From assembly GCA_963778555.1 (NCBI GenBank), contig CAVZUR010000004.1, positions 26,190 to 90,189 of the forward strand: a DNA stretch of 64,000 nt. The letters are read 5' to 3'. Each line of letters opens with the position of its first letter. The stretch's first letter is position 1. The notes under the pieces were generated by a model. The model worked only from the letters and a program-made list of their open reading frames with translations. It had not been told where the DNA came from and did no database searches. Source of the stretch: Candidatus Moraniibacteriota bacterium. Lineage in GTDB: Bacteria; Patescibacteriota; Minisyncoccia; Moranbacterales; UBA1568. This document shows positions 38,282 to 50,969 of the stretch, piece after piece. The position numbers and the translations under genes were made by a program.

Positions 38282-38919
38282 TTATCCGAAAACCGCGTGC
38301 AAGAGTCCGTCGCGTCCTTCACCGGTCTTGGCCGAGTGACGGATTACCGGCGCGGGAGAAAATTCTTTTTCGAACGATCGAATATTTGCTTCCACATCTA
38401 TCCGTCGTCCCTTATCGCATTTATTGGCGAGAATTACGACGGGCGGCCATATTCGCTCAGCAGTTTGAAGATCTCGCGGTCAGAATCTTTAGCACCGATT
38501 TCGGCATCGAGGATAAGAACTGCTGCCCGGATATCGATAGACATATCGGCCGCAAACCACGAAATATAACCAGCCATCTTTTTCCGGAGCGCCCCCGGTA
38601 CATTGGCATAGCCATAGCCCGGCAAATCCGCGAGATACCACGAATCGTTTATCAGAAAGTAGTTGATCTCCGTCGTCCGGCCAGCACGTTTATTGGCATG
38701 CGCCAAATCCTTCTGTCGCGTCAGGGCATTAATTACGCTTGATTTTCCGACATTCGAGCGGCCAAAAAACGCCACCGTCGGTCGGGACGGTTTGGGCAGT
38801 CCCTCGGAGCCGACGACTCCTTTGACGAACGTGGCGCGCTTGATTTCCATGGCCGCGGACTTTACACGTGAATTGCTCAAAGCGTTCATTATATTGACAG
38901 GAAAAAGCGAGTATGGCAA
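38282..38919 (-). CDS. engB: Ribosome biogenesis GTPase YsxC/EngB, frameshifted near 38430
   Basis: G1 GRSNVGKSSVINAL and G3 DLPGYG lie in the frame ending at 38434. The missing C-terminus VVILANKCDK...KTGEGRDGLL (NKxD motif) is in another frame ending with a stop at 38282-38284. Confidence 0.7.
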
Positions 38920-44919: not shown

Positions 44920-45207
44920 TTACTGCGCGTCAAAGCCGATCGGTGCGGTGGTCGGTGCATCACTCGATTTGATCGGACCCAATTGCTTCTCGTATTTCGC
45001 CAGATTGTCAGCGAGCGTGGCGACCATGCGTTTCATATGGCCGGGCGAGACGATGACGCGGGCATTCAGGCTACCCGCCGGTGGAAACACATTCAGGAAG
45101 TCCATCACAAATTCCTCACCGGTATGTGAGATATGGGCCATATTGGAATAGACTCCCTTCAAGACCTCGTCTGTGGCTTTAATCTGGATTTGCTTTTGTT
45201 CGTTCAT
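44920..45207 (-). CDS. DUF3467 family protein
   Basis: VYSNMAHISHTGEEFVMDFLNVFP...RVIVSPGHMKRMVATLADNLAKYEKQLGPIK closely matches DUF3467 consensus as remembered. Confidence 0.55.
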   Translation of the reverse strand: MNEQKQIQIKATDEVLKGVYSNMAHISHTGEEFVMDFLNVFPPAGSLNARVIVSPGHMKRMVATLADNLAKYEKQLGPIKSSDAPTTAPIGFDAQ

Positions 45208-45258
45208 AATATCTTGATGATTACTCTTGAAAGATGTGAATTAAGACATACATTAAAA

Positions 45259-45841
45259 TTACTGCGGATTTGGTAACGGCGTGGCAAGATTCCTTTTCTG
45301 TTTTATCCAAGCCACTCCACCGATAAACAATAGTAGAAAGAAAGATGCAGTAAAGAGGCTTTTCGAAATTGAAAAAAGATTTGTCAGTTGGGCGAGGGCA
45401 GCAGAAAAATCAGGGTACTCCGAGAGCATCATGCTGATACCAACATTCTCCAGATAATCGAACAGTCCGCCAAACATCGGCACCACACTCAACCTCTGCA
45501 CCTTACTCTCCGGCGGGAGACCCTTCTTGAATACGAGGGCCAAGAGAAAGAGAATATGTGACGGCAAAAAGTAATGGATAGACCATATCCAGCGGAATCT
45601 GTCTCCAGAGATAGGCCTCTCTCCCCTCTTGCCCCAGTGTATCGAGTAGTCGTCTCGCATATTCCGGGCTATACCCAGTCGGTTGCATATCCAGTATCTT
45701 CATCCCACCCGAATGCTCCATCACATCTGGGATGGTCACATACAGCATCGTAAAATAGACCGCTTGGGTGAGGAGAAACAAGGTAAAGACAATTTTCCCT
45801 GAAGAGTATTCTTTGAGCCAACGATAGAATTTATTCATCAT
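45259..45841 (-). CDS. Membrane protein (hypothetical), frameshifted near 45560-45610
   Basis: ORFs 45503..45841 and 45259..45660 overlap in different frames and both encode TM-rich sequence. A palindromic ArsR-operator-like motif lies within 6 nt of its ATG. Confidence 0.4.
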
Positions 45842-45842
45842 G

Positions 45843-45865
45843 GCCTATTCGCTCGAATGAGAGAC
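45843..45865. repeat. 23-nt repeat copy 1 (gcctattcgctcgaatgagagac) containing the palindrome TATTCG-CT-CGAATG
   Basis: Exact 23-nt match to 46993..47015. Sits between the arsR stop and the membrane-protein ATG. Confidence 0.6.
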
Positions 45866-45881
45866 TACCAAACCGCTAGGG

Positions 45882-46142
45882 CTAAAGGGCATCAATAATG
45901 TTCTGGATACCGGGAGTCAGTTTAGCACCGGAACGATAGTACACCGCCGTGTTGATCTGCTGTTTCTCGATGAGGTCGGCCATATACAAGATGCGCAGGT
46001 GTTTCGATGTGGCTTTGAACGACAGCTTGATACTACGAGCGATATCCCCTACCGAAGCCGAGGTCCGAGCTCGAAGCAGCTTCAGCATCGCGAGTCGGCG
46101 CGCATTGGCCAGAGCCTTTAACTGTTTCTCAAGTTCCTTCAT
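45882..46142 (-). CDS. ArsR/SmtB family transcriptional regulator
   Basis: LKALANARRLAMLKLL...SVGDIARSIKLSFKATSKHLRIL (HTH_20 winged helix). Confidence 0.7.
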   Translation of the reverse strand: MKELEKQLKALANARRLAMLKLLRARTSASVGDIARSIKLSFKATSKHLRILYMADLIEKQQINTAVYYRSGAKLTPGIQNIIDAL

Positions 46143-46194
46143 AGGCGAATCCTCATTCTTTCCTCTACCCTAGCATGCTCGATCTATATTCGCC

Positions 46195-46208
46195 AATTCG
46201 AGCGAATT
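46195..46208. promoter_or_regulatory. Palindromic operator-like site AATTCG-AG-CGAATT in the arsR promoter region
   Basis: 14-bp inverted repeat 53 nt upstream of the arsR ATG, followed by TAGAGAC. It is the same motif as the 23-nt repeats with the central dinucleotide inverted; likely the ArsR autoregulatory operator. Confidence 0.4.
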
Positions 46209-46390
46209 AGAGACCGCGATATCAGTTTAATTTATGGGTATTGTCTTGAGTATATAGAGGGTTAAGGATGACTCACCCGGGTCCGAATCCGTGTTGCCCG
46301 CCCGTCCAAAGGGATTGACAATTTTTCGAGATTGCTGACATTATACTACCAATCAGCAAGAACCCTTGCTGAAACAACCTGGAGAAACTC

Positions 46391-46876
46391 GTGAACTCTG
46401 CATGGTCTGTAAGTGTTGTCTGTCACAAAATCACTGTCAAAGAGACGCTGGCGGGGGCAGCTCTTGTCGATATTAATCGACTCATGTCCCAGTTGACCAC
46501 GAAGTGCGCTGGTCTCAATCCGGACGACCTGGAACAAATCATCAGTCAAGGTCGCTACCTCTTTGTGAAGCAACAAGGTACGATCATCGGAGTCACCACA
46601 CTGTTCCTTTCTTACAAGTCAACTGGATGGTTTGCGGAGATCCATGACGTGGTTGTGGAAAATGCGTTCCGGGGACAGGGTATCGGACGCGTCCTGATAG
46701 AACAGGCTATCACTTCGGCGAGGCAAGCTGGAGCCAAATACATTGAATTGACATCGAATCCCAGTCGCAAAGCCGCGAATAAACTGTATCGGTCGCTGGG
46801 CTTCATTTGTATCGCGAGAGCCAACCCGACGAAAAAAGGCGGCAAGGGTACGAATCTCTACCGCCTCACGCTTTGA
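46391..46876 (+). CDS. GNAT family N-acetyltransferase
   Basis: HDVVVENAFRGQGIGRVLIEQAITSARQAG; the start could be an internal Met. Confidence 0.65.
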   Translation: MNSAWSVSVVCHKITVKETLAGAALVDINRLMSQLTTKCAGLNPDDLEQIISQGRYLFVKQQGTIIGVTTLFLSYKSTGWFAEIHDVVVENAFRGQGIGRVLIEQAITSARQAGAKYIELTSNPSRKAANKLYRSLGFICIARANPTKKGGKGTNLYRLTL

Positions 46877-46992
46877 ACAATCTCACCCGCGGCGACTCCC
46901 GTACTCCGACCGACCCCAACACTGGAGGTCGGTCACATCATTTCTCCTCGGTATGCGACATGCAGTTGATGAATTGCATATGATTCTTAATC

Positions 46993-47015
46993 GCCTATTC
47001 GCTCGAATGAGAGAC
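46993..47015. repeat. 23-nt repeat copy 2 at the edge of the low-GC island
   Basis: Identical to 45843..45865. It is followed 40-70 nt later by a sequence (47058..47084) about 77% identical to 46285..46311 in the arsR-GNAT intergenic region. Confidence 0.6.
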
Positions 47016-47169
47016 ATATGGATACTACTGTCGGGGTCTTATGATTTGCCTTGATCTGAATCTGTGCTGCCTGCCCGCCCGAAGCCTTGGCGAAAGAGGG
47101 TTGTGCTCAGGGTTATAATTTCTTTTCTGATATATCTAGCTTTCTGAAACCAGCAGAATCTTACAAAGG

Positions 47170-47864
47170 TCATTGTAGAATTTTGATGCGGATTCTATAG
47201 AGGCGAGCTTTTAAGCTAAGGGATTTTGCTAAGGTTACATCATCTCTTTTCTTGAAATACTTAACGTCTGAATCTGAAAAAGATCGACTCATTGCGCTGC
47301 CATGTACTAAGATATTCCTCCTGTGATATAACCAGTCGGCATATCCCGGTACGGAATTTGGGATTGTCGCGTGTTTGAATACCTTATTTTTTTCCAATAT
47401 GAACCAGTGTTTGGATTAACTCTCGGTCGATTTGAGTCGCTGTCAGGCCAGCTGTAGCATTTTGCAAGAAGGTCACTCAATTTTTTTCGATGACTTAGTG
47501 AAAGGTAGTTTAGCGACAATTCCCTTTTTAATCTTTCAAGTACGGCCTCCTTTGGTTCATTTGAGAGTAGTAGCTTAAAAAGATCACCCTGAGTTATAGG
47601 TTCATCAAGCTTGTTTAGTATTGAGCGTCTAAAGTCTGAATCATCCGTTGCATAAGAGACAATCAAAGAGTCTACCATTGAATCAAAGCGGTTCACAACA
47701 TCAACAAAAACCAGCTTCTGTAGATGCCTCCTATTCTTATCAGGGACACCCTTAAGCTCTTTAATGGCAGACGTGATGTCTTCGTTGAGATATGATACGA
47801 AGTTCGATATTTCGTCAGAGCGGTTCATAAAATTGAGGCGGGGCACTAAGGCCCCGCTAATCAT
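47170..47864 (-). CDS. HEPN-like (Rx4HG motif) abortive-infection/toxin-like protein in a low-GC island, frameshifted near 47307-47397
   Basis: Two overlapping frames (47307..47864 and 47170..47397). The C-terminal part carries YHRRNILVHGSAM, which matches the HEPN R-x4-H-G signature. The region is markedly AT-rich compared with its flanks; there is no partner gene in the island. Confidence 0.4.
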
Positions 47865-47865
47865 T

Positions 47866-47888
47866 ACTTCTTTTCTTCCTCTTTCGGT
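47866..47888. terminator. GC-rich hairpin between HEPN-like gene start and the 3' end of the upstream gene
   Basis: gcggggc-actaag-gccccgc. Confidence 0.3.
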
Positions 47889-48905
47889 GCCTCTTCGGCT
47901 GGCTTCTCTTCAACTTCAGCATCTTTCGGCGCGTCAGTCACGACAGCTAGCGCTGGCGCTATTTCGGCCACTTTCGATGCGGCAGAGGCATCAGCAGTAG
48001 CGATCTTTACCGGGGCCGGGAGTTTCTTGCCTCTTGACAGGCTCAGTGCCTGCGGATTTCGTGAAGTTCAGGATCGCCATGCCGAACAAGACGAGAGTAA
48101 AGAGGAGTGGGATGCCACGATGACCACCGAGAGGAGCAGTGGCGACAAATGGCGCTGGGAGGAGGTAGAGAGTCGAGAGATAGGCTCGGCCATACGTGAG
48201 CCGTTCCCCGGAGATGGGCCGCCAGCCACACGACGAGGGCTCCTAGGAGGGAATAGACCAGGTAGCCGATCCAGAGGCCGAAATACATGAGAAGCGGGAG
48301 CGTATACATGAGGAGGAGGGTCCCCGTCTGGATGAGTGAGCCGCTTCGCCCCACCCAATAATTGACCGTGGCGCTCGTGACTTCGAACTTCTTGTCCATG
48401 CGCGCTTCGGAGAGAGCATAGATGCGAGTCTCGCCCCGACCAGGCTTATGGAAGCCGATCTCGGTTTCACTGGCAAGGACGAGGGTGTCGCGGTCATAAA
48501 GGCCTGGGTGGAGAGGGTGGCATCGCGATCGATCACGATGAGATTGGTCGGCCACTTTTCCCGATCTCGGTCACGGTTCTGTTTCTTGGATTTCGACTGA
48601 TGCTCCCACTCAGTGGGAAAGGGAATCACCACGGGACCGGCTTGATTGGTCAGGAGGCGGCCCTGGTCGAAGGTGAGGACGAGATCATCGGGGTACATGG
48701 CTTCGATGGCAGTCGCTTGTTTCTGCCACAAGTTGGACTCGAAGTAACGGTTCACGCCCCAGAGCGCCGGGATGACGATGAGAGAGAAACCAATAACGAG
48801 CGCGAGAATCGAGAGGGAGTAGAACTGAAAGGCCTGACCCCCGGTAAAGCGTTGATCCCGGAAAAAGTCCGGACGGTAAAAAATGGCTTTAAGTCGTTCG
48901 AGCAT
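47883..48905 (-). pseudogene. Membrane protein of unknown function with multiple frameshifts
   Basis: N-terminus MLERLKAIFYRPDFF... followed by TM helices in the frame from 48905. Plausible continuation occurs in two other frames (48043..48555 and the frame giving ...LLPAPFVATAPLGGHRGIPLLFTLVLFGMAILNF). The 3' end encodes an APKDAEVEEKP...KK tail resembling the DnaK tail. Confidence 0.45.

Positions 48906-49016: not shown

Positions 49017-50969
<1,953 letters not shown>

What the first reader, a model, noticed from the sequence alone, without database searches (positions are those of the whole stretch)
46880..47890. Low-GC island carrying a solo HEPN-like (Rx4HG) toxin/Abi-type gene, flanked by a duplicated operator-like repeat
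A stretch of about 1 kb is conspicuously AT-rich relative to its flanks. It encodes one gene of about 230 aa, split by a frameshift, whose C-terminus has YHRRNILVHGSAM, the R-x4-H-G signature of HEPN RNases found in abortive-infection and toxin proteins. The island's left edge carries a 23-nt exact copy of a sequence found 1.15 kb away next to arsR, followed by a second segment about 77% identical to part of the arsR-GNAT intergenic region. This suggests the island inserted with, or recombined through, a duplicated promoter/operator segment. No integrase, cognate antitoxin or MNT partner is present. The gene could be an orphan defence or toxin gene under ArsR-type control, a decayed system, or part of a system whose partner is unrecognised.
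Basis: partly seen in the sequence, partly recalled or inferred. Interest (0 to 1): 0.62.

Follow-up and report, generated by a model that had tools for sequence, protein, structure and literature searches.

The report
Solo HEPN-like RNase gene, uncurated family
The AT-rich patch is one horizontally acquired gene for a stand-alone, probably RNA-cutting (HEPN-type) protein of a small unnamed family that often sits beside anti-phage systems. The neighbouring "duplicated operator" belongs to a separate ArsR regulator cassette, and the gene's frameshifts are most likely assembly errors.

Summary
Window 47136-47828 (minus strand) has the lowest GC of the 64 kb (0.398 against 0.537) and encodes one protein of about 230 aa with an invariant R-N-x3-H motif. 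The 23-nt repeat and the second similar segment are real.

Three corrections:
- The gene has two frameshifts, not one. dnaK in the same window carries seven single-base indels, so these are probably assembly errors. The gene evolved under purifying selection (pN 0.20, pS 0.87 against its ortholog).
- No curated Pfam, NCBIfam or PADLOC model reaches threshold. Only weak, in-register hits to HEPN models appear (RiboL-PSP, MAE_28990, Apea, DzbB, RT-associated HEPN). [quoted passage not shown] This is an uncurated HEPN-like family of about 100 clusters, mostly in CPR bacteria, with no conserved partner. At least 11 loci have restriction-modification, BREX, SIR2-HerA, HepT-MNT or AbiE genes nearby.
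- The repeat is the conserved operator of the adjacent ArsR regulator (found in 15 of 15 relatives). It lies 3' of the gene and outside the low-GC patch. Related genomes carry the HEPN-like gene alone, the arsR cassette alone, or both, so these are independent cargo at one variable site.

Verdict: a new member of a known kind, of modest interest.

The parts
47136..47828 (-). HEPN-like gene, 230 aa after correcting two 1-nt indels. Start ATG 47826-47828, stop TAG 47136-47138. Carries the invariant Asp (NRFDS), HRKK and RRNILVH (Rx4H) motifs.
   Evidence: Full-length alignment to 7, then 51, homologs. GC 0.398.
47387..47400 (-). Frameshift 1: one base missing relative to homologs, either in TCA|TAT or in the A7 run at 47387-47393.
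47209..47212 (-). Frameshift 2: one extra base in an A4 run (T4 on the plus strand). Removing it restores the conserved C-terminal helix ...KLASIESASKFYNDLCKILLVSES.
47838..47857 (-). Terminator-like GC hairpin plus T-run lying between the stop of the upstream membrane-protein gene and the HEPN-like ATG. No room is left for a promoter. L004 has a degenerate equivalent.
47048..47084 (-). Element S_C. The left part (47055-47084) is 80% identical to S_B at 46282-46311. The right part (47048-47069) matches the 5' coding end of DUF3467 (QIQIKA) of L004 at 21 of 22 bases, so it is a relic of the ancestral HEPN-like to DUF3467 junction.
46983..47015 (-). Box C: third copy of the ArsR-subfamily operator (core ATTCGCTCGAAT). 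It lies 3' of the HEPN-like gene and has no intact gene behind it.
46391..46876 (+). GNAT acetyltransferase gene, part of the neighbouring cassette and not part of the HEPN-like unit.
46182..46214 (-). Box B: operator copy about 40 nt upstream of arsR. S_B lies at 46282-46311.
45882..46142 (-). ArsR-family (HTH_5) regulator, 86 aa, without cysteines.
45833..45865 (-). Box A: operator copy between arsR and the downstream membrane-protein gene, overlapping that gene's start codon.
45259..45841 (-). Small membrane-protein gene downstream of arsR. It is split by an indel and has no Pfam match.
44920..45207 (-). DUF3467 gene. In L004 it follows the HEPN-like gene after 54 nt.
47864..48905 (-). Membrane-protein gene downstream of dnaK, split by several indels. 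It is the conserved left flank of the variable site in the window, L004 and L026.

Best explanation
Window 47136-47828 (minus strand) encodes a stand-alone protein of about 230 aa from a small, uncurated family of the HEPN superfamily. It is most likely a metal-independent RNase that uses the invariant Arg-Asn-x3-His motif.

Shown:
- The family exists: about 100 clusters at 50% identity, mostly in CPR/Patescibacteria, with scattered members in Verrucomicrobia, Gammaproteobacteria, Nitrospirales and others.
- D49, K116, R170 and H175 are invariant across the family.
- The confident predicted fold places R..H at the end of one long helix and the invariant Asp in the second long helix, with a helical insert of about 95 aa between them.
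- The gene is AT-richer than its host almost everywhere.
- It has no conserved neighbour.
- In at least 11 loci it lies beside or inside restriction-modification, BREX, SIR2-HerA, HepT-MNT, AbiE, NERD, FRG or ORF6N/integrase contexts.
- In this lineage it occupies a variable site between the dnaK-adjacent membrane-protein gene and DUF3467. It is present in the window and in L004, absent from L026, and under purifying selection.

Inferred:
- It acts as a single-gene defence or abortive-infection-type effector or toxin.
- Its activity is probably restrained by needing dimerisation or a trigger to assemble a composite HEPN site, with the large insert (nearly invariant His113, invariant Lys116) as a candidate sensor or substrate-binding module.
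- Expression is probably low, given the terminator-like hairpin directly upstream and the AT-rich codons.

The adjacent repeats are the operator of the neighbouring ArsR-family regulator cassette. That cassette is an independent insertion at the same site and does not regulate this gene. The two frameshifts are most likely assembly errors.
For: Family and motif:
- 8 hits in the 5.8 G protein set and 101 in the 1.84 G representative set; 22 genome loci.
- D49, K116, R170 and H175 invariant in 52 sequences.

HEPN likeness:
- Sub-threshold hits that all cover the motif: PF18735 in 8 of 52 members (best E 1.7e-4), plus PF18737 and PF18739.
- PADLOC DzbB in 11 of 52 members, mapping to its C-terminal 232-322/341, and RTasHEPN in 4 of 52.
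- AF2 model with pLDDT 94.4 and pTM 0.90, with helices 3-26, 30-61, 159-175 and 207-226. This matches the published HEPN description: motif at the end of helix 3, acidic residue in helix 2, insert between helices 2 and 3, polar residue after Arg (PMC3710099).

Horizontal origin:
- The gene's GC is below the locus average in all 24 loci examined and below both available flanks in 22 of them. GC3 is 0.40.
- The gene is absent from syntenic L026.

Functional constraint:
- pN 0.20 and pS 0.87 against the L004 ortholog.

Defence context.

No partner gene: all-against-all clustering of neighbours.

Frameshifts as artefacts: seven single-base indels in dnaK and other split housekeeping genes.

Operator:
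- ATTCG-NN-CGAAT upstream of arsR in 15 of 15 relatives, and usually downstream as well.
- Only three copies in the window against 0.28 expected.
Against: - No HEPN profile reaches its curated threshold. The window protein itself gives no Pfam, PADLOC or PDB-sequence hit.
- No homolog was found in phage, plasmid or IMG/VR collections.
- Several loci are housekeeping contexts.
- In the window and L004 the gene sits co-directionally in the dnaK region, so a non-defence role is possible.
- Nothing here tests RNase activity, toxicity or phage protection.
Confidence: 0.6

Rival explanations
1. The gene is a decaying pseudogene. On this reading the two frameshifts are real and the locus is the remnant of a lost defence or toxin system.
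For: - Two frameshifts in 0.69 kb.
- The deposited annotation calls only a 185-aa fragment (P0002).
- Relics of other genes lie next to it.
Against: - dnaK in the same window has seven single-base indels relative to two orthologs, and an engB-like gene and others are also split. The indel rate in the HEPN-like gene is therefore no higher than in essential genes.
- All invariant residues are retained.
- pN/pS is about 0.23 against the intact L004 ortholog.
Confidence: 0.2
2. It is a housekeeping or stress-response RNA-processing enzyme of this CPR lineage, co-expressed with the grpE-dnaK region, and not a defence or toxin gene.
For: - Same position and orientation downstream of dnaK and the membrane-protein gene in two genomes.
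- No own promoter is evident.
- Purifying selection.
- Some relatives sit among housekeeping genes.
Against: - Absent from the syntenic relative L026.
- Patchy distribution across phyla.
- Consistently foreign composition.
- Many relatives lie inside restriction-modification, BREX or other defence loci, or next to an integrase.
Confidence: 0.15
3. It is the toxin of a toxin-antitoxin pair whose antitoxin is unrecognised. One candidate is a small RNA or peptide from 46.9-47.17 kb, for example a plus-strand transcript starting near the TATAAT at 47115 and running antisense to the 3' end of the gene, possibly gated by ArsR binding at box C.
For: - Solo HEPN toxins usually need a restraint.
- Region C copies part of the arsR-GNAT promoter region, and TATAAT at 47115-47120 can be read directly in the sequence.
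Against: - The scan found no promoter-like site with canonical spacing there, and there is no Rfam hit.
- The L004 ortholog has only 54 nt before DUF3467 and no arsR cassette.
- No conserved small ORF or neighbour was found across 24 loci.
- Box C is oriented like boxes A and B, for minus-strand transcription.
Confidence: 0.07
4. The protein is not a HEPN domain at all. The R-x4-H match would then be coincidental within an unrelated all-alpha fold of unknown function.
For: - No profile hit reaches threshold.
- Foldseek found no significant structural neighbour.
Against: - R170, N171 and H175 are conserved across 52 diverse sequences (R170 and H175 strictly invariant), together with an invariant Asp in the second helix.
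- The only recurrent weak hits are five different HEPN models, all in register with the motif.
- The predicted topology matches the published HEPN description.
Confidence: 0.15

Closest known systems
RiboL-PSP-HEPN (Pfam PF18735), which PMC3710099 describes as distantly related to AbiD/AbiF
   Same: - It is the most frequent weak profile hit: 8 of 52 members, and the match covers the RNxxxH region.
- The size is similar: a 191-position model against about 225 aa.
- One relative (L006) is immediately followed by an endoribonuclease L-PSP/RidA gene.
- A review table (PMC10952713) lists PF18735 as the HEPN domain for the defence systems PD-T4-2, PD-T4-5, PD-T7-3 and ApeA.
   Different: - All hits are below the gathering score of 28.4 bits (best 16.8 in the detailed table).
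- The window protein itself gives no hit.
- There is no ParB/DUF262 partner.
- L-PSP adjacency occurs in 1 of 24 loci and never as a fusion.
DzbB of the Dazbog defence system (PADLOC PDLC03836)
   Same: Weak hits in 11 of 52 members (best E 1.3e-4) to the C-terminal part of the DzbB model (positions 232-322 of 341), including the motif.
   Different: - DzbB is longer and works with the DUF262 protein DzbA (PMC10952713). No DUF262 or DzbA gene is next to any member examined.
- The scores are sub-threshold.
Solo HEPN abortive-infection proteins embedded in restriction-modification loci (AbiJ, AbiU2 and Ymh solos in PMC3710099, Table 1)
   Same: - Stand-alone HEPN-type protein.
- Found in or beside R-M operons (EcoO109I, MvaI/BcnI, NgoPII) and BREX.
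- No antitoxin.
   Different: - No sequence match to those families was detected in Pfam.
- A distinctive insert of about 95 aa carries the conserved RHSKK and PRVN motifs.
- The family is mostly in CPR bacteria.
HepT-MNT (HEPN toxin with nucleotidyltransferase antitoxin)
   Same: Rx4H RNase-type motif. HepT-MNT pairs occur 1.5 kb from family members in L008 and L010.
   Different: - No MNT partner is adjacent to the gene itself in any locus.
- The protein is twice the size of HepT.
- There is no RX4HXY signature; after the His comes Gly or another small residue.

Membership tests
HEPN superfamily (as defined in PMC3710099) | Conserved Rx4-6H motif with a polar residue (N, D or H) immediately after the Arg | tested here: met
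   R170 and H175 are invariant and N171 is conserved across the 52 aligned sequences. The window protein has RRNILVH. The definition is quoted.
HEPN superfamily (as defined in PMC3710099) | Second conserved acidic residue in helix 2, near the motif (typically Ex3[KR]) | tested here: inconclusive
   An invariant Asp (D49, in NRFDS) lies in the second long helix (30-61) of the model. However, it is D-x3-D rather than Ex3[KR], and its spatial proximity to the motif could not be measured because no coordinates were available.
HEPN superfamily (as defined in PMC3710099) | Four-helix up-down bundle with the motif at the end of helix 3, before the loop to helix 4, often with an insert between helices 2 and 3 | tested here: inconclusive
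HEPN superfamily (as defined in PMC3710099) | Metal-independent RNase activity dependent on the Arg and His | not testable with these tools
   Requires biochemistry.
Pfam PF18735 HEPN_RiboL-PSP | Score at or above the Pfam gathering threshold (28.4 bits) | tested here: not met
   The window protein gives no hit. The best member in the detailed table scores 16.8 bits, and the best E over 52 members is 1.7e-4.
Pfam PF18735 HEPN_RiboL-PSP | Fusion or adjacency to endoRNase L-PSP, or an operon with ParB (PMC3710099, Table 1) | tested here: not met
   An L-PSP gene is adjacent only in L006. No ParB/DUF262 gene is adjacent in the loci examined; in L042 ParB lies 3 kb away and is unrelated.
Known defence systems (PADLOC-DB v2) | Significant match to a system protein, together with the system's partner genes | tested here: not met
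   No hit for the window protein. Family members give only weak DzbB and RTasHEPN hits, and no partner genes are present.
Type II toxin-antitoxin HEPN-MNT | Adjacent MNT nucleotidyltransferase antitoxin gene | tested here: not met
   None is adjacent in the window or conserved across 24 loci.
ArsR/SmtB regulon (for the repeats) | Palindromic operator conserved next to the regulator gene in relatives | tested here: met
   ATTCG-NN-CGAAT lies 29-80 nt upstream of arsR in 15 of 15 relatives, and most have a second copy 3-84 nt downstream. The window has three copies against 0.28 expected. Binding itself was not tested.

The most novel reading that the evidence does not exclude
The family is a self-contained, single-protein antiviral sensor-effector that is enriched in CPR/Patescibacteria. 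In this reading the conserved insert of about 95 aa (RHSKK, PRVN) between HEPN helices 2 and 3 senses infection and licenses the Rx4H RNase. A sister subfamily adds a C-terminal winged-helix domain. Its persistently AT-rich codons, despite saturated synonymous divergence between orthologs, would reflect selection to keep expression of a toxic protein low.
Probability: 0.2. Interest if true: 0.55.

Novelty: new member of a known kind. Interest (0 to 1): 0.35.

Why it matters
The family could be added to HEPN and defence-gene catalogues. About 100 sequence clusters, all annotated 'hypothetical', have no Pfam, NCBIfam or PADLOC model. A confident structure prediction is available, and the gene is repeatedly embedded in restriction-modification, BREX and SIR2-HerA loci. 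Most members are in CPR bacteria, which have tiny genomes and appear to have few recognised defence systems (general knowledge, not tested here). A single-gene RNase effector would be a cheap form of immunity there and is easy to test in a surrogate host.

The analysis also yields a clean operator motif (ATTCG-NN-CGAAT followed by AGGCGAAT) for an uncharacterised, cysteine-free ArsR subfamily. It also documents a small variable site downstream of dnaK that has three cargo states in three related genomes.

None of this changes a major concept.

Tried and rejected
- Pfam, PADLOC and NCBIfam on the corrected window protein gave no meaningful hit. phmmer and a profile search against PDB sequences gave nothing, or only spurious designed armadillo repeats.
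- The first AF2 run, with 7 sequences, was unusable (pLDDT 50). The run with 52 sequences was good.
- tblastn against plasmids and phages, and a scan of IMG/VR, found no relatives.
- I tried to bridge to an annotated HEPN family through the distant long subfamily. No hit had a precomputed Pfam domain.
- Conserved-partner search: the only neighbour 'cluster' directly abutting the gene (cluster 4) is antisense ORFs over an N-terminal extension of one subgroup, not a gene.
- Rfam and tRNA scans of the locus found nothing nearby.
- The exact-sequence look-up of the window's own 185-aa fragment (P0002) was not on record, so the window's source organism was inferred only from synteny with Candidatus Moraniibacteriota contigs.
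- I rejected the idea that region C (46877-47135) is a full decayed DUF3467 copy. Only the 5' 22 nt are significant. The colinear downstream protein-level matches are individually non-significant.
- Literature searches for this family in CPR defence found nothing specific.
Full report
**1. The observation**

The composition profile shows a sharp GC trough at about 47.1-47.9 kb (0.38-0.43, against 0.52-0.60 on both sides). For 760-bp windows the window-wide mean is 0.537 with sd 0.028, and the minimum (0.399) falls exactly here. The trough coincides with one minus-strand gene. The corrected CDS at 47136-47828 has GC 0.398, and the upstream gene has 0.568. The repeat-bearing segment 46880-47099 has GC 0.523, so it lies outside the trough. 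GC3 of the gene is 0.40, against 0.50-0.76 for six neighbouring genes.

The 23-nt exact repeat (46993-47015 = 45843-45865) is real (E 2.4e-7). It belongs to a three-copy 33-nt family at 45833, 46182 and 46983. The second similar segment (47055-47084 against 46282-46311, 24/30 identical) is also beyond chance: none of 1000 shuffles and none of 1340 other windows reached its score.

**2. The gene**

Three-frame translation and alignment to homologs show two frameshifts, not one. One base is missing after ...RPRVNPNTGS, somewhere between 47387 and 47400. One base is extra in the run at 47209-47212. With both corrected, a 230-aa protein aligns end to end with its relatives, including a conserved C-terminal helix that the uncorrected frame loses.

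These frameshifts are not evidence of decay. dnaK in the same window carries seven single-base indels relative to two orthologs, mostly outside homopolymers. An engB-like gene and others are also split. The assembly is simply indel-prone.

Against the intact ortholog in L004, pN is 0.20 and pS is 0.87 (saturated), which indicates purifying selection.

A terminator-like hairpin (47838-47857) plus a T-run sits between the upstream stop codon and the ATG. L004 has a degenerate equivalent. I found no separate promoter.

**3. The family**

- The corrected protein has no hit in Pfam, PADLOC, NCBIfam or PDB sequences.
- Only 8 proteins matched in the word-indexed 5.8 G set. A profile search of 1.84 G cluster representatives found 101 (52 at E<=1e-30). 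A genome scan found 22 loci.
- Hosts are mostly CPR/Patescibacteria (Moraniibacteriota, Parcubacteria, Saccharibacteria, Nomurabacteria, Minisyncoccia). There are also Verrucomicrobia, Gammaproteobacteria, Comamonadaceae, Nitrospirales, Deltaproteobacteria and Methylomirabilota.
- Every source name is 'hypothetical protein'.
- No relatives occur in the plasmid, phage or IMG/VR collections.
- In a 52-sequence alignment, the invariant columns are D49 (NRFDS), K116 (RHSKK), R170 and H175 (RRNxxVH).
- A sister subfamily of about 325-350 aa keeps KRNAxTH and adds a C-terminal DeoR-like winged helix.

**4. Is it HEPN?**

Per-member scans give only sub-threshold hits, but they are consistent. They are PF18735 HEPN_RiboL-PSP (8 of 52 members, best E 1.7e-4), PF18737 and PF18739. 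They also include PADLOC DzbB (11 of 52, mapping to the model's C-terminal positions 232-322 of 341) and RT-associated HEPN (4 of 52). All overlap the motif.

AF2 with the 52-sequence alignment gave pLDDT 94.4 and pTM 0.90. The published description of the HEPN domain has four elements:
- Rx4-6H at the end of helix 3, running into the loop to helix 4;
- a polar residue after the Arg;
- a conserved acidic residue in helix 2;
- frequent inserts between helices 2 and 3 (PMC3710099).

The model matches this. Its helices are 3-26 and 30-61 (the latter containing D49), followed by a helical insert at 62-158. Helix 159-175 ends in R170..H175, then comes a loop, and the last helix is 207-226.

**5. 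Context elsewhere**

All-against-all clustering of neighbours across 24 loci found no conserved partner. The gene's GC is below the locus average in all 24 loci examined and below both available flanks in 22 of them.

Pfam on neighbours shows defence or mobile contexts in at least 11 loci:
- AbiEi (L002)
- HepT + MNT (L008, and L010 by clustering)
- EcoO109I restriction-modification (L011)
- XRE + MvaI/BcnI restriction-modification (L014)
- SIR2 + HerA (L015)
- FRG (L016)
- NERD-helicase (L017)
- Within a BREX cluster, between Fic and an Eco57I-type methylase and downstream of BrxC (L018)
- ORF6N (L022)
- ORF6N + tyrosine integrase + VapBC (L041)
- An NgoPII restriction-modification operon on 14 contigs (L044-46)

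Some contexts are housekeeping. In L006 an L-PSP/RidA gene follows immediately.

**6. Context here**

The window is collinear with L004 (Candidatus Moraniibacteriota, SSEF01000010.1) over about 28 kb at 72-84% nucleotide identity. The HEPN-like gene is at the same place there (67% nt, 71% aa) and is equally AT-rich. In L004 it is followed after 54 nt by DUF3467.

The window has an extra 1.9 kb between the two genes (45208-47135). It contains a small membrane-protein gene, arsR, a divergent GNAT gene and region C.

A second relative, L026 (ArsR 87% identical), reads dnaK - membrane protein - S - box - arsR - box - 327-aa gene - box - DUF3467. It has no HEPN-like gene and no remnant of one.

So the site has three cargo states in three related genomes. 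The HEPN-like gene and the arsR cassette are independent. Region C begins with a 22-nt relic of the DUF3467 5' coding end (21 of 22 matches to L004; 0 of 1000 shuffles). This fits an ancestral HEPN-like to DUF3467 junction, followed by gain or loss of the cassette through short homology. The direction of that event is not resolved.

**7. The repeats**

The core ATTCG-NN-CGAAT occurs exactly three times in 64 kb, against 0.28 expected. In 15 of 15 metagenomic loci with a close ArsR homolog, the same palindrome (extended consensus roughly TCTCTAATTCGCGCGAATAGGCGAAT) lies 29-80 nt upstream of arsR. Most of those loci have a second copy 3-84 nt downstream, and some have further copies 0.6-1.2 kb away. 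It is therefore the operator of this cysteine-free ArsR subfamily.

Box C is oriented like boxes A and B, lies 3' of the HEPN-like gene, and has no intact gene behind it. Together with S_C it is a duplicate of the arsR upstream unit (S + box), which L026 also has. ArsR control of the HEPN-like gene is not supported. No Rfam family or tRNA is nearby.

**8. Verdict**

The finding is a real, compositionally foreign, single-gene insertion encoding a probable HEPN-type RNase from an uncurated, defence-associated family. The gene is likely intact, because the frameshifts look like assembly noise. It is not linked to the ArsR operator repeats. I rate it a new member of a known kind, with interest of about 0.35.

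Noticed in passing
window 49017-50951 (dnaK); also 47864-48905, 45259-45841 and 38288-38856: The assembly is full of single-base indels. dnaK has seven relative to two orthologs, mostly outside homopolymers, and several other conserved genes are split. Any 'pseudogene' call in this window is unsafe.
   Followed up: yes
window 45833-45865, 46182-46214, 46983-47015; loci L026-L040: A conserved operator (ATTCG-NN-CGAAT followed by AGGCGAAT) flanks the gene of a small cysteine-free ArsR-family regulator in 15 of 15 relatives, typically as box-arsR-box with the next gene starting right after the second box. This defines a regulon motif for an uncharacterised CPR regulator.
   Followed up: partly
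window 44920-48905; L004 8958-11040; L026 2671-5831: The gap between the dnaK-adjacent membrane-protein gene and DUF3467 is a small variable site with three states in three related genomes: HEPN-like gene only, arsR cassette only, or both. A 22-nt relic of the DUF3467 5' end (47048-47069) marks the junction.
   Followed up: partly
window 47901-47935 and 49042-49076: The 3' end of the membrane-protein gene repeats the coding sequence of DnaK's acidic C-terminal tail (29 of 35 nt identical; 0 of 1000 shuffles reach the score). The orthologs in L004 and L026 end differently.
   Followed up: partly
L006 10001-11059: One family member (Saccharibacteria MAG) is followed 28 nt later by an endoribonuclease L-PSP/RidA gene. 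This is the association that gave RiboL-PSP-HEPN its name, but it is seen in only one of 24 loci.
   Followed up: no
proteins P0081, P0084, P0087, P0090, P0095, P0124-P0126, P0131-P0137: A sister subfamily of about 325-390 aa keeps the KRNAxTHNRN motif and adds a C-terminal DeoR/Mga-like winged-helix domain. This suggests nucleic-acid binding or self-regulation.
   Followed up: partly
L018 2478-13658: In a Verrucomicrobiaceae MAG the family member sits within a BREX cluster, between a Fic protein and the Eco57I-type (PglX-like) methylase and downstream of BrxC.
   Followed up: partly
L022 9376-10690 and L041 4376-6747: An ORF6N-domain gene lies directly upstream of the family member in two loci. 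In L041 a tyrosine integrase follows, and the whole unit sits between inverted copies of a PRiA4_ORF3 + 459-aa gene pair, which suggests a mobile element.
   Followed up: no
L019 1135-1928: In a deltaproteobacterial MAG an unrelated ArsR-family gene (my own reading of its sequence; not scanned against Pfam) lies about 400 nt downstream of the family member. This is probably coincidental.
   Followed up: no
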